A model generated the notes under the pieces. It searched no databases. It was given only the letters and a program-made list of their open reading frames with translations, and was not told where the DNA came from. Both the position numbers and the translations under genes were made by a program. From assembly GCA_043821365.1 (NCBI GenBank), contig JBDRCX010000003.1, positions 32,001-96,000 on the forward strand: a stretch of DNA of 64,000 nucleotides. Reading direction: 5' to 3'. The stretch is from Candidatus Micrarchaeota archaeon (GTDB taxonomy: Archaea > Micrarchaeota > Micrarchaeia > Anstonellales > Bilamarchaeaceae). Below are positions 20,239 to 24,899 of this stretch, in pieces (within the stretch, counting starts at the first letter, position 1; the number at the start of each line of letters is the position of its first letter).

Positions 20239-21228
20239 ATGCCAAAAAATCAGACAGAGTCCAGAAAAAAAGACCATGTTGATCTAGTTGTTGATGATGG
20301 AGCACAATATGCAAAAACAACTGGATTCGAACGTATGGATTTTGTCCATAATGCATTGCCAGAAATATCTCTTCAATCAGTTGATCTTTCAACAAAGTTC
20401 TTCAATAAAAAAATCAAATATCCAATTCTAATAACTGGAATGACTGGTGGGTATTCTGATGCTGAAAAAATCAATAGACAACTAGCAGCAGCTGCACAGA
20501 AATACGGTCTTGCATTTGGTGTTGGTTCACAAAGAGCAATGATCGAAAAACCAGAATTAGCAAAAACATATAAAGTTCGTGATGTTGCTCCAGATATTCC
20601 ATTACTCTCCAATATCGGTGCATTTCAACTTAAGAAATATTCAACCAAACAAATTGAATCATTGGTTCAAGATATCGAGGCAGATGCTCTTGCAATCCAT
20701 CTTAATGCACTTCAAGAGGTTATCCAACCAGAAGGCGATACTGATTTTACTGGAATTTTAGCTGCAATAGAGAAAACATGTGACGGATTGTCAGTTCCTA
20801 TTATTGTTAAGGAAACTGGTGCAGGCCTTAGTCAGGATGTTGCAATTGCATTGAAAAAAGCAGGTGTGAAATATTTGGATGTTGCAGGAGCAGGTGGAAC
20901 ATCCTGGAGTGTTGTTGAATATCTTCGTGGTGGTGGTGTTCCTGGTTTTGAAAACTGGGGGATTCCAACTGCTGAATCAATAATCCAATGTAAGGGAGTT
21001 CTGCCAATAGTTGCTACTGGTGGAATCAGAACTGGTGTTGATGGTACAAAAGCAATAGCTCTTGGTGCAGATATGTGTGGTGCAGCCTACCCATTCATCA
21101 AATCATTAAAGAAAAACAAACTAAATCAATTTATAGAGATTTTTGAGAAGCAAATGGCAATATCAGCTTATCTTACTGGTTCTAAAACTATTTCTGATCT
21201 AAAAAAGGCCAAACTTCGATTTTTGTAA
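20239..21228 (+). CDS. fni: Type 2 isopentenyl-diphosphate isomerase (FMN)
   Basis: RKKDHV, MTGG, GVGSQR, HLNALQE, VKETGAG, DVAGAGGTSW and ATGGIRTG. Confidence 0.96.
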   Translation: MPKNQTESRKKDHVDLVVDDGAQYAKTTGFERMDFVHNALPEISLQSVDLSTKFFNKKIKYPILITGMTGGYSDAEKINRQLAAAAQKYGLAFGVGSQRAMIEKPELAKTYKVRDVAPDIPLLSNIGAFQLKKYSTKQIESLVQDIEADALAIHLNALQEVIQPEGDTDFTGILAAIEKTCDGLSVPIIVKETGAGLSQDVAIALKKAGVKYLDVAGAGGTSWSVVEYLRGGGVPGFENWGIPTAESIIQCKGVLPIVATGGIRTGVDGTKAIALGADMCGAAYPFIKSLKKNKLNQFIEIFEKQMAISAYLTGSKTISDLKKAKLRFL

Positions 21229-21305: not shown

Positions 21306-21342
21306 AGTAGTATTTAAATAATGTTATAAACAGTGTATATAC

Positions 21343-22962
21343 ATGCAAAGAGTAGAAAAAATGCTAGCTCAGCGATCGCATTGGCCTCCTCAGCTTCAAG
21401 CATCAGCTAGAAGGTGGGCTGATTGTTATGCCAAGTTCGGTGGCCAAGATGCATTTTCCCATCCACTCCGTGTTCTTGACCGTGCAATAGACCATGATAT
21501 GGTTGAACTGCATAAAATTGGGGATAGGCGGGTAGATCCTAAACAACTTAATCTTAAACTAGCGAACATCATACTCGGACATATATTTAGACATGGAAGA
21601 AATAATCGGAGAGATTTCCCATCAGAAGACTTTGAAAGAAGCCAGCTGACCATGAGTGGATTTGAAATTTTTGATGCATTAAGGGAGAATGATCTTAGTG
21701 CAATGTCACGGGCTAGATATGGTGAACTTTTAGAAACTCCATCGCTCGGCACATTAGCAAGATGTATTGATGTTGCACAATATGGGCCAGATGGACTTAC
21801 TTCTGAAGGTGAACTTGCTAACTTAGATCCAAATATTTTCTACCGATTCAGTCCATATACAGGTAAAAGTGAATATGAACATATAGCTCGCGTTGCAAGA
21901 ATGGTTTATGCACCTCTATGTGATCTTTTCAGTTATAGAAAATTAGCTGGAGATTTGATGCAAATGTCCTATTACCATCTTGATCGTGGGATTTATGATG
22001 ATGTAAATCTGTATTTAAAACTTCTAGAAACTAAAATTGCTGCAACTCAGAGACTTATGGAGGCAGTACTTCTCCAATTAAAAGAGAGACTGGATAGTGC
22101 TGGTTATAGGTATGATATAATCTTTAGAGAACAAAAACATCCTGGGAAAGTTATGGAGAAGGTTGACAGGTATTCGCGTGGTGATGGCCTTTCAACCGAA
22201 ACACATATTGAATCGCTTAGTGATCTTGTTGCTTTTACTGTTGTTTTACACTCAAAAAAAGATGGTAATGGTGGTAAGGTTATTACACAAAATGATCTTG
22301 ATGATTTTGAATTTGTAGCAAAATCTATAGTTGAAATCGTATCGGGATTGAAAAAATTACGTAATAATAATTACAGCGCTAGTCTTTTTACTGATAGAAT
22401 CACTAATCCTAAAGAAAGTGGATACCAGTCCTATCATGTTGACATGGCATTTGAAGACCATAGTTTAGTTGGGCTTGAAGCAATAGTACGAAATACCATA
22501 ATGCATACATATGCCGAACGAGGTGGTGCAGCCCATCATCTATTCAAAGGAGGGGCTGGATTAACAAAAACAGTTGAAAAAGCTTACAGGAATATCAAAG
22601 ATGCAATTGCAGGGGGTCAAAATCCAAATGACACTGACCGATCAGTTTCTTATCAAAGAATTCAATTTGTTGTTCCAGGTTCTGAACCATATCTGCGCAT
22701 TGTTCCGGGAGGTGCATCAGTTGGAGAAGCTCTTATTTGCGGTGGCATCAGCCTATTTGATAGACTTTCCATTGATCCACCAAGATCAATTTTTGATCAA
22801 ATTCGTGGTACTTCAGAATTACGTTTAGTTACGTCTGGTTATCCTCTTGTTGCTAATGAACAAATTCTAAGAGAGCTTCAAATGATGGCAATTAATCCAT
22901 CTACTGCACGTGAAATTCATGGTTTAATAAGAGAACTAAGACTTACTCCTAGATCTCCTTGA
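21343..22962 (+). CDS. RelA/SpoT homolog (long RSH-like) with degenerate hydrolase and variant synthetase motifs
   Basis: SHPLRV; IARVARMVYAPL; REQKHPGKVMEK; SDLVAFTVV; DRITNPKESGYQSYHV; EAIVRNTIMHTYAERGGAAHHLFK; VPGGASVGEA (TGS-like). Confidence 0.8.
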   Translation: MQRVEKMLAQRSHWPPQLQASARRWADCYAKFGGQDAFSHPLRVLDRAIDHDMVELHKIGDRRVDPKQLNLKLANIILGHIFRHGRNNRRDFPSEDFERSQLTMSGFEIFDALRENDLSAMSRARYGELLETPSLGTLARCIDVAQYGPDGLTSEGELANLDPNIFYRFSPYTGKSEYEHIARVARMVYAPLCDLFSYRKLAGDLMQMSYYHLDRGIYDDVNLYLKLLETKIAATQRLMEAVLLQLKERLDSAGYRYDIIFREQKHPGKVMEKVDRYSRGDGLSTETHIESLSDLVAFTVVLHSKKDGNGGKVITQNDLDDFEFVAKSIVEIVSGLKKLRNNNYSASLFTDRITNPKESGYQSYHVDMAFEDHSLVGLEAIVRNTIMHTYAERGGAAHHLFKGGAGLTKTVEKAYRNIKDAIAGGQNPNDTDRSVSYQRIQFVVPGSEPYLRIVPGGASVGEALICGGISLFDRLSIDPPRSIFDQIRGTSELRLVTSGYPLVANEQILRELQMMAINPSTAREIHGLIRELRLTPRSP

Positions 22963-23413
22963 ATTCAGTAAGTCTAGTTATAACATTCAAAACCATGTTT
23001 GTATTTGTTTTTTCTACACCAGAAACTGCAAGTATCTTTTTTACTGTTGAACTGAGTTCACCGCGTGTTTTACACATAACAACTGCAATTGCATCATATC
23101 CACCAGTTGTATCCCATACTGCTGCCACATGTGGTATTTTTGCCACCTTTCCTTCTATCTGCAGTAAATCCTTTCCTGAGATGCTTATATCTACAACTGC
23201 CATAAATTCAAAGCCTAGTTTGTTGTAATCCAGTTTAGCCCCATACCCAGTTATGTATTCTGATTCTTCGAGAGATTTTACTCTTTCTATTATTGCAGTT
23301 GTTGACATTCCAATATCCTTTGCAAGTTTTCGATAGGAACGTTTTGAATTTTTTACTAATTCCCCAAGTAGTCTTTTGTCCATTTCGTCCAGTTTTCTTG
23401 TAATATTTTTCAT
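22949..23413 (-). CDS. Lrp/AsnC family transcriptional regulator
   Basis: LDEMDKRLLGEL...SYRKLAKDIGMSTTAIIERVKSLE HTH; TTGGYD RAM domain; likely start MKNITRK. Confidence 0.92.
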   Translation of the reverse strand: MKNITRKLDEMDKRLLGELVKNSKRSYRKLAKDIGMSTTAIIERVKSLEESEYITGYGAKLDYNKLGFEFMAVVDISISGKDLLQIEGKVAKIPHVAAVWDTTGGYDAIAVVMCKTRGELSSTVKKILAVSGVEKTNTNMVLNVITRLTEFKEI

Positions 23414-23416
23414 ATA

Positions 23417-23468
23417 AACCAAACATTTGTATGTAATATTTATATATTTATTGGACATTTGTTTGGTT
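23417..23468. promoter_or_regulatory. Candidate operator in the Lrp/glnA divergent intergenic region
   Basis: AACCAAACA (23417-23425) / TGTTTGGTT (23460-23468) inverted repeat flanking an AT-rich TATA-like core; ACATTTGT occurs twice. Confidence 0.45.
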
Positions 23469-23555
23469 AAAAACCATTTCACAAGCTTTTTAATCTTTGT
23501 TTTCTTATTTTAACAAATATTTGGGAGTTTTTAGTTTAATTTGGGAGGTTTTATT

Positions 23556-24899
23556 ATGGAATTTAAAGAAGTTACTGACGAAGAAATATTGGAAAGAGTT
23601 GCGAAAGACAATGTAAAATTTGTGAATCTGCAATTCACTGATCTTTTTGGTGTTGTTAAGAATGTTACAATTACTTCTGAACATCTTGAAGATTCACTCG
23701 AAAGTGGAACCTGGTTTGATGGCTCTTCAATCGAAGGGTTTGCAAGAATCCATGAAAGCGACATGTTTTTGAAACCAGATAAAGACACGTATGTTTCAAT
23801 CCCATGGTTACATTCTGCTGATGGTAATACTGCGAGGTTGATTTGTGATATATATAACGCAGATGGAAAGCCGTTTGAGGGAGCTCCAAGAACAATTCTA
23901 AAAAAAGTATTAGCAGAAGCAAAAGAACTTGGATATGAATATAATACTGGACCAGAACTAGAATTTTTTCTTTTCAAAAAAGAGAATTGTAAATTGCAAC
24001 CACTTCCACATGATAAGGGTGGCTATTTTGATTTAAGTATGGATCATGCCTATGAAATAAGAAGAGACATGGCCATAGCATTAGGAAAATTTGGTATAGC
24101 TGTTGAAGCACTTCATCATGAAGTTGCGGTTGGTCAGCATGAGATTGATTTTAGATATGGTGATGCTCTAAAAACTGCTGATAATGCAACAACAATGCGA
24201 TATGTAGTGAAAGCTGTTGCAGAAAAACATGGTTTACATGCTACTTTTATGCCAAAGCCAATTACGGGTATAAATGGCAGTGGTATGCACATCCATCAGA
24301 GTCTTTTCAAAGATGATGTCAATCTATTCTTTGATGGGTCTGATTCTCATAACATGTCTTCACTTGCAAAAAATTTCATTGCCGGACAATTGAAACATAT
24401 TCGTGGTATGTGTGCGATAACTTCACCCACAGTCAATTCATACAAAAGGCTTACTCCGGGGTATGAAGCCCCAGTTTATTTAAGCTGGGCAAGAACAAAT
24501 CGTTCTGCATTAATTCGTGTGCCTGCCATCAAGAAAGATAAGCCAAAAGCTGCTCGTATTGAATTACGTTGCCCAGATCCATCCTGCAATATTTATCTTG
24601 CATTTGCAATAATGTTAAAGGCTGGCCTGGATGGAATAAAGAATAAACTTGAACCACCAGTACCTGTAGAAGAAGATCTTTATGAGTTTGATGATAATAA
24701 ACTTTCAAAACTCAATATTGCACAACTTCCCTATTCTTTATTTGAGGCAACAAAAGAAATGAAAAAGAGTGAGCTTGTAAAAGATGTTCTGGGAGAAACA
24801 ACTTTCAACAAGTATATTCATGCAAAGATTTCTGAATGGGATGAGTACAGATTACAAGTTACCGAGTGGGAGCTTGATCGCTATCTGGAAAGTTATTGA
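23556..24899 (+). CDS. glnA: Glutamine synthetase type I
   Basis: FDGSSIEGF, GPELEFF, HHEVAVGQHEI, FMPKP, NGSGMHIHQSL, NRSALIRVP and RIELRCPDP; SD GGAGG before ATG 23556. Confidence 0.98.
   Translation: MEFKEVTDEEILERVAKDNVKFVNLQFTDLFGVVKNVTITSEHLEDSLESGTWFDGSSIEGFARIHESDMFLKPDKDTYVSIPWLHSADGNTARLICDIYNADGKPFEGAPRTILKKVLAEAKELGYEYNTGPELEFFLFKKENCKLQPLPHDKGGYFDLSMDHAYEIRRDMAIALGKFGIAVEALHHEVAVGQHEIDFRYGDALKTADNATTMRYVVKAVAEKHGLHATFMPKPITGINGSGMHIHQSLFKDDVNLFFDGSDSHNMSSLAKNFIAGQLKHIRGMCAITSPTVNSYKRLTPGYEAPVYLSWARTNRSALIRVPAIKKDKPKAARIELRCPDPSCNIYLAFAIMLKAGLDGIKNKLEPPVPVEEDLYEFDDNKLSKLNIAQLPYSLFEATKEMKKSELVKDVLGETTFNKYIHAKISEWDEYRLQVTEWELDRYLESY

What the first reader, a model, noticed from the sequence alone, without database searches (positions are those of the whole stretch)
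21343..22962. Long RelA/SpoT-like protein in an archaeon, with altered synthetase motifs, next to the Lrp-glnA locus
Seen: ordered RSH landmarks. The HD domain is degenerate (SHPLRV; LGHIF where HD is expected). The linker reads YAPL, Syn1 R-x-x-K...K, Syn2 DLVAFT (conserved Arg to Thr), Syn3 PKESGYQSYH and Syn4 EAIVRN (EIQIRT Gln lost), followed by MH..AE.G.AAH..K and a TGS-like remnant; there is no ACT/ZFD. Known: long RSHs are bacterial or plastid proteins and archaea generally lack a (p)ppGpp stringent response; divergent RSH synthetases can make (pp)pApp or pyrophosphorylate tRNA. Inference: an archaeal alarmone-like or repurposed nucleotidyltransferase system, possibly nitrogen-linked given convergence on Lrp and proximity to glnA and cysM.
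Basis: partly seen in the sequence, partly recalled or inferred. Interest (0 to 1): 0.8.

Follow-up and report, generated by a model that had tools for sequence, protein, structure and literature searches.

The report
Truncated RelA/SpoT-type alarmone synthetase in Micrarchaeota
This gene encodes a conserved, lineage-specific cut-down version of the bacterial stringent-response enzyme RelA/SpoT in tiny DPANN archaea (Micrarchaeota), which probably still makes a (p)ppGpp-like signal nucleotide, a molecule not yet described in any archaeon.

Summary

**Family and fold.** Pfam RelA_SpoT scores 41.5 bits (cut-off 27). An AlphaFold model (pLDDT 86.5) superposes on B. subtilis Rel at Z 23.5. Profile-profile comparison with bacterial long RSHs gives probability 99.9%, E 2.5e-34.

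**Architecture.** Pseudo-hydrolase with an HD fold (dyad reads H-[V/I/L]), three-helix linker, SYNTH domain, TGS and two helices. There is no ZFD or RRM/ACT.

**Origin.** It is not a decaying recent transfer:
- about 30 homologues (32-59% identity) occur, named Micrarchaeota wherever a name is given;
- the slot fni-RSH-lrp-glnA is conserved across genera;
- GC3 is native;
- a TATA box lies 22 nt before the ATG.

**Active site.** The catalytic Asp and Glu, the Syn1 Arg/Lys residues and the G-loop PKxNGYQSxH are (nearly) invariant. Three residues invariant in the 32 bacterial-type long RSHs compared are replaced family-wide: R to T (adenine sandwich), S to K and Q to I.

**Reading.** Most likely it is a monofunctional pyrophosphokinase making (p)ppGpp (about 0.5). 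Altered donor or acceptor specificity is the main rival.

**Not supported.** The proposed nitrogen link rests only on general synteny. A stand-alone small HD_4 hydrolase exists in this genome but is not a consistent partner.

The scan noted this gene before, and a similar one in another genome. I class it as a new variant of a known kind.

The parts
21313..21320 (+). TATA-box-like TTTAAATA, 22 nt upstream of the ATG; implies its own archaeal promoter and a leaderless or near-leaderless mRNA
   Evidence: Read directly from the sequence. The same TTTAAAWA box lies about 22-24 nt before the start in orthologue loci L026, L030, L032 and L033, and closer to the start in L025. Its function as a promoter is inferred.
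21343..22962 (+). RSH-like gene, 539 aa plus stop
21343..21867 (+). N-terminal pseudo-hydrolase domain (aa 1-175). It has the HD fold, but the HD dyad reads H80-I81. H40, H80 and D143 sit at the positions of three of the four canonical metal ligands.
   Evidence: VIA-align places model 3-439 on B. subtilis Rel 8-391 at Z 23.5, and model 13-220 on the small alarmone hydrolase 7p1y at Z 8.7. hhalign pairs H80 with the His of HD and D143 with the Asp of LADRL. There is no HD_4 Pfam hit. The domain alone against bacterial HD profiles gives E 0.31. It is as conserved as SYNTH, with 33 of 160 columns at 90% or more.
21868..22098 (+). Central three-helix linker (aa 176-252) with YAPL, a long-RSH hallmark
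   Evidence: The PDB profile search aligns aa 178-307 to E. coli RelA 168-298. See also hhalign and the model's helices 176-252.
22099..22557 (+). SYNTH (RelA_SpoT) nucleotidyltransferase domain (aa 253-405). Present: R262, K265, K273, D294, K357, Y361, H365, E379, R383. Variant: K269, T299, I381.
22645..22842 (+). TGS-like beta-grasp (aa 435-500), VPGGASVGEALICGG
   Evidence: hhalign pairs it with LPxGATxLDFAYxIHS. VIA-align places model 435-537 on B. subtilis Rel 391-489 (6htq) at Z 8.1, rmsd 3.0. There is no Pfam TGS hit.
22843..22959 (+). Two C-terminal helices (aa 501-539) matching the start of the helical domain of long RSHs; the protein ends before any ZFD or RRM
20239..21228 (+). Context: type 2 IPP isomerase (fni), the conserved upstream neighbour
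   Evidence: TIGR02151 380.6 bits against a cut-off of 281; synteny
22949..23482 (-). Context: Lrp/AsnC regulator, convergent with RSH, 14-nt 3' overlap
23541..24899 (+). Context: glutamine synthetase type I, divergent from lrp

Best explanation
The gene encodes a member of a Micrarchaeota-specific subfamily derived from bacterial-type long RSH (Rel/RelA/SpoT) enzymes. Shown: the architecture is pseudo-HD, three-helix linker, SYNTH, TGS and two helices, without ZFD or RRM. Shown: the family is conserved, syntenic and compositionally native. Inferred: it works like RelA, as a monofunctional Mg2+-dependent pyrophosphokinase. D294 and E379 would hold the metal. R262, K265, K269 and K273 would hold the triphosphate of the donor ATP. 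The G-loop (P356-K357-x-x-G360-Y361-Q362-S363-x-H365) would stack and bind a guanosine acceptor, whose 3'-OH receives the beta,gamma-pyrophosphate to give (p)ppGpp. Inferred: the pseudo-HD domain is as conserved as SYNTH, and together with the TGS it acts as the regulatory part, replacing ribosome sensing through ZFD and RRM. The donor pocket is remodelled (R to T at the second adenine-sandwich Arg, S to K at the alpha-phosphate Ser, Q to I in EIQIRT). Kinetics or donor preference therefore probably differ from bacterial enzymes. Inferred: in this genome the product could be removed by a stand-alone small HD_4 hydrolase or by Nudix enzymes.
For: RelA_SpoT is above the Pfam cut-off. The best PDB sequence and structure matches are long RSHs, well above the small alarmone synthetases and CapRel: Z 23.5 and 19-21 against 9-12. 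hhalign to long RSHs gives E 2.5e-34 through the TGS. In 29 homologues at 32-59% identity, R262, K265, K269, K273, D294, P356, K357, G360, S363, E379, A396, A397, H398 and K402 are invariant; Y361, Q362, H365 and R383 are at 90% or more. The N-domain and SYNTH are equally conserved. The core family forms a clade with support 100. fni-RSH-lrp-glnA synteny holds in 8 of 10 loci, including other genera. GC3 is 0.207 against a window mean of 0.230, sd 0.025. A conserved TATA box lies 22 nt before the ATG. The same genome holds a 140-aa HD_4 protein with an intact H..HD..D site and four Nudix genes.
Against: The Arg that sandwiches the ATP adenine together with R241 (RelSeq R269, RelTt R277) is Thr in this family. 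ATP-site and G-loop substitutions in RelTt, including the R249A/R277A double mutant, strongly reduce activity (PMC7983052; bioRxiv 10.1101/670703). The Ser that contacts the alpha-phosphate (SaRelP Ser84, PMC5794853) is Lys here. The Gln of EIQIRT is Ile here. Most orthologue-bearing genomes of the genus show no recognisable RSH-type hydrolase, and Ppx-GppA was not found in this 87%-complete genome. (p)ppGpp was not detected in the archaea assayed so far (PMC10249747). No expression or activity data could be obtained.
Confidence: 0.5

Rival explanations
1. It is an active pyrophosphokinase with changed specificity. The remodelled donor pocket (T299, K269, I381) or the acceptor site directs synthesis of another product, such as (pp)pApp or pGpp, or pyrophosphorylation of the 3'-CCA end of tRNA as in CapRel/FaRel2. 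A donor other than ATP is also possible.
For: Three residues invariant in the 32 bacterial-type long RSHs compared are replaced, and the replacements are themselves nearly invariant in the family. One of them is an experimentally important adenine-stacking Arg (PMC7983052, bioRxiv 10.1101/670703). A TGS domain is retained; in RelA it contacts the tRNA CCA end (established knowledge). Sister subfamilies carry K or R at position 299, so the Thr is a derived, subfamily-specific state.
Against: The acceptor (G-loop) motif PKxNGYQSxH matches the (p)ppGpp-making long RSHs of the comparison set almost letter for letter. Structural similarity to Tas1 and CapRel is much lower (Z 8.6-9.3) than to Rel (Z 23.5). 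No antitoxin-like neighbour and no convincing PADLOC match were found; the only hit is PDC-S33 at E 0.0013, 16 bits.
Confidence: 0.25
2. It is bifunctional after all. The N-terminal domain keeps a non-canonical metal site (H40, H80, D143, plus D65 or D117 in place of the lost Asp) and still hydrolyses the product.
For: Three of the four metal-ligand positions are (nearly) invariant, and the domain is as conserved as SYNTH. Most orthologue-bearing genomes lack any other RSH-type hydrolase.
Against: The Asp of the HD dyad is a defining metal ligand of the HD superfamily and is hydrophobic here in all members. There is no HD_4 or HD Pfam hit. The profile comparison of the domain alone is not significant, E 0.31. 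The catalytic ED pair has no aligned counterpart.
Confidence: 0.1
3. It is a catalytically dead pseudoenzyme used as a nucleotide sensor or scaffold.
For: An ATP-stacking Arg is lost, and in RelTt the R249A/R277A double mutant strongly reduces activity (bioRxiv 10.1101/670703). (p)ppGpp has not been described in archaea (PMC10249747).
Against: The metal-binding D294 and E379, the triphosphate-binding R/K residues and the whole G-loop are invariant over 32-59% identity. That is not expected if catalysis were lost.
Confidence: 0.1
4. It is a recent, decaying bacterial transfer or a binning contaminant.
For: Total GC is slightly high, 0.383 against a mean of 0.350, sd 0.018. Long RSHs are otherwise bacterial (PMC3153485).
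Against: The 539-aa frame is intact. GC3 is native. Orthologues occupy the same slot in at least three genera. The clade is specific to Micrarchaeota-named sequences. An archaeal TATA box is present. The contig neighbours are archaeal housekeeping genes shared with relatives.
Confidence: 0.02
5. It is functionally coupled to nitrogen control through Lrp and glnA.
For: The RSH-lrp-glnA order is kept in 7 of 10 orthologue loci.
Against: The genes are convergent (RSH and lrp), and RSH has its own promoter-like box. Upstream neighbours (L11, FNR-like, DUF7847-like, fni) are equally conserved, so this is block synteny. G169 keeps fni-[unrelated 584-aa ORF]-lrp-glnA. Divergent members such as L027 and L029 sit elsewhere.
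Confidence: 0.1

Closest known systems
Bacterial long RSHs: Rel (B. subtilis 6yxa, S. equisimilis 1vj7, T. thermophilus 6s2t), RelA (E. coli 5iqr), SpoT (7qpr)
   Same: Same domain order from the N terminus through the TGS: HD-fold domain, three-helix linker with YAPLA, SYNTH, TGS and the start of the helical domain. It shares the catalytic Asp and Glu, the Syn1 R/K/K residues, the G-loop PKxNGYQSxH and the AAHxxYK motif. As in RelA, the hydrolase domain has lost the HD dyad.
   Different: It is 539 aa rather than about 700-750, with no ZFD (CCxP...C) and no RRM/ACT. The adenine-sandwich Arg is Thr, the alpha-phosphate Ser is Lys with a one-residue insertion in Syn1, and the Gln of EIQIRT is Ile. 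The TGS His (IHS) is lost. The N-domain is no longer detectable by HD_4 profiles, yet it is strongly conserved with its own set of polar residues.
Small alarmone synthetases RelP/RelQ and toxSAS/CapRel/Tas1
   Same: The nucleotidyltransferase-fold SYNTH core (Z 8.6-11.8).
   Different: Those proteins are single-domain, or SYNTH plus an unrelated C-terminal domain. They lack the HD-fold N-domain, the three-helix linker and the TGS. They score far lower than long RSHs. This gene has no TA-like or defence context.
RelA/SpoT genes annotated in other DPANN phyla (PMC8407392) and the canonical 647-652-aa long RSH of another Micrarchaeota family (L015-L018)
   Same: These are archaeal carriers of RSH genes attributed to transfer from Bacteria. 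L015-L018 show that the phylum also holds conventional long RSHs.
   Different: The L015-L018 proteins keep an intact HD_4 (E about 1e-44) and the EAQIRT and RxKHIYS motifs, and they fall on the bacterial side of the tree. The present family lies in a separate clade of Micrarchaeota-type sequences that has three subfamilies.

Membership tests
RSH superfamily (RelA_SpoT / SYNTH domain) | Match to Pfam PF04607 above the gathering score | tested here: met
   41.5 bits against a cut-off of 27; 44.3 bits in the genome scan
RSH superfamily (RelA_SpoT / SYNTH domain) | Catalytic metal-binding Asp (RelSeq D264) and Glu (E323) | tested here: met
   D294 and E379 are invariant in 29 sequences and aligned to the invariant D and E of long RSHs
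RSH superfamily (RelA_SpoT / SYNTH domain) | Syn1 basic residues that bind the ATP phosphates (R241, K243, K251 in RelSeq) | tested here: met
   R262, K265 and K273 are invariant
RSH superfamily (RelA_SpoT / SYNTH domain) | Second adenine-sandwich Arg (RelSeq R269, RelTt R277, SaRelP R112) | tested here: not met
   T299 in at least 90% of the family, aligned to the invariant Arg; its role is described in PMC7983052 and PMC5794853
RSH superfamily (RelA_SpoT / SYNTH domain) | G-loop with stacking Tyr (RelSeq Y308) in PKxNGYQSxH | tested here: met
   PKESGYQSYH at 356-365; P, K, G and S are invariant, Y, Q and H at 90% or more
RSH superfamily (RelA_SpoT / SYNTH domain) | Gln of the E-x-Q-x-R strand | tested here: not met
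   I381 in at least 90% of the family, aligned to the invariant Gln
RSH superfamily (RelA_SpoT / SYNTH domain) | Pyrophosphotransfer from ATP to the 3'-OH of GDP or GTP | not testable with these tools
   This needs an enzyme assay
Long RSH (Rel/RelA/SpoT) | N-terminal HD-fold hydrolase or pseudo-hydrolase domain joined to SYNTH by the three-helix linker | tested here: met
   Z 23.5 over model 3-439 against B. subtilis Rel 8-391; a small alarmone hydrolase on model 13-220 at Z 8.7; the linker is aligned
Long RSH (Rel/RelA/SpoT) | Functional hydrolase site H...HD...D with ED (needed for Rel/SpoT type, absent in RelA type) | tested here: not met
   The HD dyad reads H-[V/I/L] (H80-I81 here); there is no HD_4 hit. 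In this respect the protein is RelA-like.
Long RSH (Rel/RelA/SpoT) | TGS domain after SYNTH | tested here: met
   hhalign continues through the TGS to template column 482; Z 8.1, rmsd 3.0, over model 435-537 against Rel 391-489. There is no Pfam TGS hit, and some orthologues lack this part (L031, L032).
Long RSH (Rel/RelA/SpoT) | C-terminal ZFD (conserved Cys motif) and RRM/ACT domains that dock on the ribosome | tested here: not met
   The protein ends at aa 539, which corresponds to template column 482 of about 750. The CCxP...H...C columns of the bacterial alignment have no counterpart.
toxSAS / CapRel-type toxin or defence RSH | Bicistronic toxin-antitoxin or defence-island context and a match to defence models | tested here: not met
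   The neighbours are fni and lrp, conserved housekeeping genes. PADLOC gives only PDC-S33 at E 0.0013, 16 bits.
Small alarmone hydrolase (for the separate 140-aa ORF, L002:1483-1905) | HD_4 match above the cut-off with the H...HD...D ligands | tested here: met
   PF13328 43.8 bits against a cut-off of 27.2; TIGR00691 N-terminal region 58.6 bits; the motifs HP, HDVIEN and CDMIDN are read in the sequence

The most novel reading that the evidence does not exclude
Micrarchaeota of the Bilamarchaeaceae type run an archaeal alarmone system of their own. An anciently acquired long RSH radiated into at least three lineage-specific subfamilies: this 530-aa pseudo-HD-SYNTH-TGS form, a roughly 460-aa form often found in tandem pairs, and a 530-700-aa form. 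The present enzyme, with its re-engineered donor pocket (T299, K269, I381) and no ribosome-docking domains, would make (p)ppGpp or a related nucleotide under a new kind of control. That would make it the first experimentally tractable route to an alarmone in archaea.
Probability: 0.35. Interest if true: 0.8.

Novelty: new variant of a known kind. Interest (0 to 1): 0.58.

Why it matters
Reviews state that (p)ppGpp has not been described in archaea (PMC10249747). The reference RSH survey states that archaea lack long RSHs (PMC3153485). One genomics paper lists RelA/SpoT annotations in other DPANN phyla as lateral transfers, without analysing them (PMC8407392).

This gene shows something more specific. 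A long-RSH-derived enzyme has been kept under purifying selection in a fixed chromosomal slot across genera of Micrarchaeota. Its catalytic and guanosine-binding residues are intact, its ATP pocket is systematically altered, and it has no ribosome-sensing domains.

If the enzyme is active, it gives a concrete protein to express and assay. That would test whether any archaeon makes an alarmone. The natural R-to-T, S-to-K and Q-to-I triple variant would also inform how RSH enzymes bind their donor nucleotide.

If it is inactive, it is a case of a conserved RSH pseudoenzyme. In either case the finding concerns enzyme-family diversity rather than a new kind of system.

Tried and rejected
Expression remains untested.
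2. Obligate synthetase/hydrolase pair: I supposed that the small HD_4 ORF of this genome was the dedicated partner.
   - HD_4 was found in only 3 of 21 genomes of the genus.
   - None of the strong-orthologue genomes listed for the genus showed it.
   - A protein search found a close orthologue of it only in one other genus, G188, at 62% identity.
   - I rejected it as a consistent partner.
3. N-domain alone against bacterial HD domains by profile-profile comparison: not significant, E 0.31. The top local alignment is nevertheless the expected H40 region. The ESM Atlas feature search of aa 1-180 gave HD_4 clusters at 0.87-0.88, below the 0.9 level, so this is a lead only.
4. Supplementary tables of the toxSAS/RSH classification preprint: no archaeal entries were found in the files held. 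Whether this family already has a subfamily name could not be checked.
5. PADLOC: no convincing match. The bacterial promoter and terminator scan was uninformative for an archaeon.
6. Ppx-GppA was not found in this 87%-complete genome.
7. 'Compositionally foreign', from an earlier first-reader note: total GC is +1.8 sd but GC3 is -0.9 sd. Rejected.
8. Coordinates of the structure model are not exposed, so I could not measure whether H40, H80, D143, D117 and D65 cluster, nor what lies next to T299.
9. The tree is FastTree only, midpoint-rooted, without an outgroup. It was built from the 150 best profile hits plus family members and four added sequences. Support for the wider Micrarchaeota-type clade is only 75, so no donor lineage is claimed.
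Full report
**1. Observation**

window:21343-22962 (+) is a single open frame of 539 codons starting with ATG.

| Motif | Residues |
|---|---|
| SHPLRV | 39-44 |
| LGHIF | 78-82 |
| YAPL | 189-192 |
| FREQKHPGKVMEK | 261-273 |
| DLVAFT | 294-299 |
| PKESGYQSYH | 356-365 |
| EAIVRN | 379-384 |
| MHTYAERGGAAHHLFK | 387-402 |

- Pfam recovers RelA_SpoT above its curated cut-off: 41.5 against 27 bits, aa 264-403.
- Pfam finds no HD_4, TGS or ACT domain.
- NCBIfam gives only sub-threshold matches to the spoT_relA models.

**2. Fold and architecture**

An alignment of 29 homologues (A1) gave an AlphaFold2 model with mean pLDDT 86.5 and pTM 0.80.

- Foldseek's best hits are full-length or N-terminal long RSHs, at E 1e-11 to 1e-8.
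- VIA-align places model residues 3-439 on B. subtilis Rel 8-391 at Z 23.5. RelSeq, RelTt, S. aureus Rel, RelA and SpoT follow at Z 19-21.
- Small alarmone synthetases reach only Z 10-12. CapRel and Tas1 reach Z 8.6-9.3.
- A small alarmone hydrolase covers model 13-220 at Z 8.7.
- The TGS plus helical segment of ribosome-bound Rel (6htq 391-489) covers model 435-537 at Z 8.1, rmsd 3.0.
- A profile of the family against PDB sequences hits E. coli RelA at 1e-16, over the linker and SYNTH.
- hhalign of the family against 32 bacterial-type long RSHs (A2) gives probability 99.9% and E 2.5e-34. It covers aa 82-536 against template columns 76-482 of about 750.
- The protein therefore consists of an HD-fold domain, the three-helix linker, SYNTH, TGS and two helices.
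- It stops before the Cys-rich ZFD and the RRM/ACT domain.

**3. Residue-level comparison**

Residues conserved with long RSHs:
- Syn1: R262, K265, K273
- Catalytic Asp: D294
- D351
- G-loop: P356, K357, G360, Y361, Q362, S363, H365
- Catalytic Glu: E379
- R383 and M387
- A396, A397, H398 and K402

Three columns that are invariant in the bacterial-type set are replaced, and the replacements are themselves (nearly) invariant in the family:

| Bacterial residue | Residue here | Known role |
|---|---|---|
| Arg (RelSeq R269, RelTt R277, SaRelP R112) | T299 | Sandwiches the ATP adenine together with R241; the RelTt R249A/R277A double mutant strongly reduces activity (PMC7983052, PMC5794853, bioRxiv 10.1101/670703) |
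| Ser of Syn1 (SaRelP Ser84) | K269, with a one-residue insertion | Contacts the alpha-phosphate (PMC5794853) |
| Gln of EIQIRT | I381 | Not looked up here |

- In the N-domain, H80 aligns with the His of the HD dyad. The Asp position is V, I or L (Ile in this protein).
- H40, H80 and D143 sit at three of the four canonical metal-ligand positions.
- The domain alone is not significantly similar to bacterial HD profiles (E 0.31).
- It is nevertheless as conserved as SYNTH, with 33/160 against 36/153 columns at 90% or more.
- Its invariant polar residues include D65, H80 and D117.
- So it is a constrained domain with a changed site, not a decaying one.

**4. Distribution and history**

- The word-indexed search found 30 proteins including the window's own, of about 480-560 aa and 32-59% identical. 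Wherever a source gives a name, it is Micrarchaeota.
- The exhaustive profile search found 41 representatives at E<=1e-30. Behind them come thousands of ordinary RSHs.
- The named intermediates are Candidatus Bilamarchaeaceae.
- In 301 genomes of the phylum the profile matches 51. These include 36 of 64 genomes in the window's family and 18 of 21 in its genus, with strong orthologues (E<1e-120) in about ten.
- A FastTree of linker plus SYNTH from 175 sequences puts the core family in a clade with support 100.
- That clade lies inside a 94-sequence clade of Micrarchaeota-type proteins (support 75). The larger clade also holds a roughly 460-aa subfamily and a 530-700-aa subfamily.
- Bacterial-type long RSHs lie on the other side. 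So do the canonical 647-652-aa long RSHs of another Micrarchaeota family, which have an intact HD_4 at E about 1e-44.
- The Thr at 299 is specific to the core family. Its nearest sisters have Lys, and the other subfamilies have Arg.
- This tree has no outgroup and only local supports, so I claim no donor.

**5. Genomic context**

- In 8 of 10 orthologue loci, from at least three genera, fni lies directly next to the RSH gene, mostly within the block L11, FNR-like reductase, DUF7847-like membrane protein, fni (type 2 IPP isomerase, TIGR02151 380 bits), RSH.
- In 7 of those 10 loci a convergent lrp follows, then a divergent glnA.
- RSH identities in these loci go down to 27-32%.
- RSH GC3 (0.207) lies within the window's range (0.230, sd 0.025). 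Total GC is 1.8 sd high.
- TTTAAATA lies at 21313-21320, 22 nt before the ATG. The same box recurs at that distance in four orthologue loci, and closer to the start in a fifth.
- This is the geometry of an archaeal TATA box with a leaderless mRNA. That reading is inferred.
- Together these points refute the idea of a recent decaying transfer or a contaminant.

**6. No specific nitrogen link**

- The whole block is syntenic, not only RSH with lrp and glnA.
- RSH and lrp are tail to tail.
- A congeneric genome (G169) has an unrelated 584-aa ORF without any Pfam family in the same slot.
- Divergent family members sit elsewhere (L027, L029).
- Two orthologues in the slot lack the TGS part (429-444 aa; L031, L032). 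The pseudo-HD plus SYNTH half is therefore the constant core.

**7. Turnover of the product**

- The same genome encodes, on another contig, a 140-aa HD_4 protein with an intact site: HP, then HDVIEN, then CDMIDN.
- Its scores are 43.8 bits against a cut-off of 27.2 for PF13328, and 58.6 bits for the TIGR00691 N-terminal region.
- It lies between a class I Trp/Tyr-type tRNA synthetase (Pfam tRNA-synt_1b) and a glutamine amidotransferase.
- It could act as a small alarmone hydrolase.
- It is sporadic, however. HD_4 was found in 3 of 21 genomes of the genus, and none of the strong-orthologue genomes listed showed it.
- A close orthologue of it turned up only in one other genus.
- Four Nudix genes are present, and no Ppx-GppA was found.
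- How a product would be degraded in most carriers is therefore open.
- This keeps a non-canonical hydrolase role of the N-domain on the table.

**8. Mechanism**

- Shown: the architecture, the conservation, and the intact catalytic and acceptor residues.
- Inferred: a RelA-like monofunctional pyrophosphokinase that transfers the beta,gamma-pyrophosphate of ATP to the 3'-OH of GDP or GTP.
- Inferred: regulation through the pseudo-HD and TGS rather than ribosome docking.
- I put this at about 0.5.

Rivals:

| Rival reading | Confidence |
|---|---|
| Changed donor or acceptor specificity, prompted by the T299/K269/I381 triad | 0.25 |
| Retained non-canonical hydrolase activity | 0.1 |
| Pseudoenzyme | 0.1 |
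| Recent transfer or contaminant | 0.02 |

**9. Comparison with what is known**

- The reference survey states that archaea lack long RSHs and lists only a few small ones (PMC3153485).
- A 2023 review states that (p)ppGpp has not been described in archaea and was not detected in Haloferax or Sulfolobus (PMC10249747).
- A 2021 DPANN genomics paper reports RelA/SpoT annotations in Diapherotrites, Woesearchaeota, Pacearchaeota and Nanoarchaeota as transfers from Bacteria. It does not list Micrarchaeota and gives no analysis (PMC8407392).
- Some members of the present family already carry automatic names such as 'ppGpp synthetase/RelA/SpoT-type nucleotidyltransferase'.
- The gene family is therefore visible in databases but uncharacterised.
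- What is new is the defined subfamily: its truncated architecture, its systematic donor-site substitutions, its strongly conserved pseudo-HD, and its vertical inheritance and radiation within Micrarchaeota.
- I class it as a new variant of a known kind, of moderate to fairly high interest.
- The scan's first readers noted this gene twice before, and a similar gene in another genome.

Noticed in passing
L002:1483-1905 (+) = G000 contig C6, about 568403-568825: A stand-alone 140-aa HD_4 protein with an intact H..HD..D site, a candidate small alarmone hydrolase. It lies between a class I Trp/Tyr-type tRNA synthetase gene and a glutamine amidotransferase gene. A 62% orthologue was found only in one other genus (G188).
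   Followed up: partly
L045:5029-6783 (+) (G169, same genus): In the fni-[X]-lrp-glnA slot this genome carries an unrelated 584-aa ORF with no Pfam family and no profile similarity to the RSH family. This is gene replacement at a conserved slot.
   Followed up: partly
L050:5128-8142 (-) and L051:5363-8388 (-) (G275, G180, same genus): Tandem pairs of 461-506-aa RSH-like paralogues (N-domain plus SYNTH, no TGS). Each pair is flanked by a 332-aa ORF and a 465-495-aa ORF without matches to the RSH profile; these were not compared with each other. Possibly a conserved multi-gene cluster of a second Micrarchaeota RSH subfamily.
   Followed up: partly
L015-L018 (G274, G093, G168, G051; another family of the phylum): Canonical-looking long RSHs of 647-652 aa with a full HD_4 (E about 1e-44) and the EAQIRT and KHIYS motifs. 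They lie on the bacterial side of the tree, so they look like a separate, more conventional acquisition.
   Followed up: partly
window:18005-19441 (+): A 478-aa ORF with no Pfam or NCBIfam match. It lies between the FNR-like gene and the DUF7847-like gene, where the relatives compared show no homologue of it. It looks like an insertion specific to this genome.
   Followed up: no
window:24893-25633 (-): The cysK/M-like ORF starts at about profile position 44-52 of cysteine synthase models, so roughly 45 N-terminal residues are missing from the called frame. Earlier scan notes suggest a frameshift or recoding at its start.
   Followed up: no
window:26025-26150 (-): A tRNA match spanning 126 nt (Rfam 53.8 bits). 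That is too long for a plain tRNA, so it presumably carries an intron.
   Followed up: no
window:16645-17115 (-): The ribosomal protein L11 gene lies 4 kb upstream and is part of the same conserved block. In bacteria L11 is needed for RelA activation. Here the proximity looks like plain synteny and is not evidence of a link.
   Followed up: no
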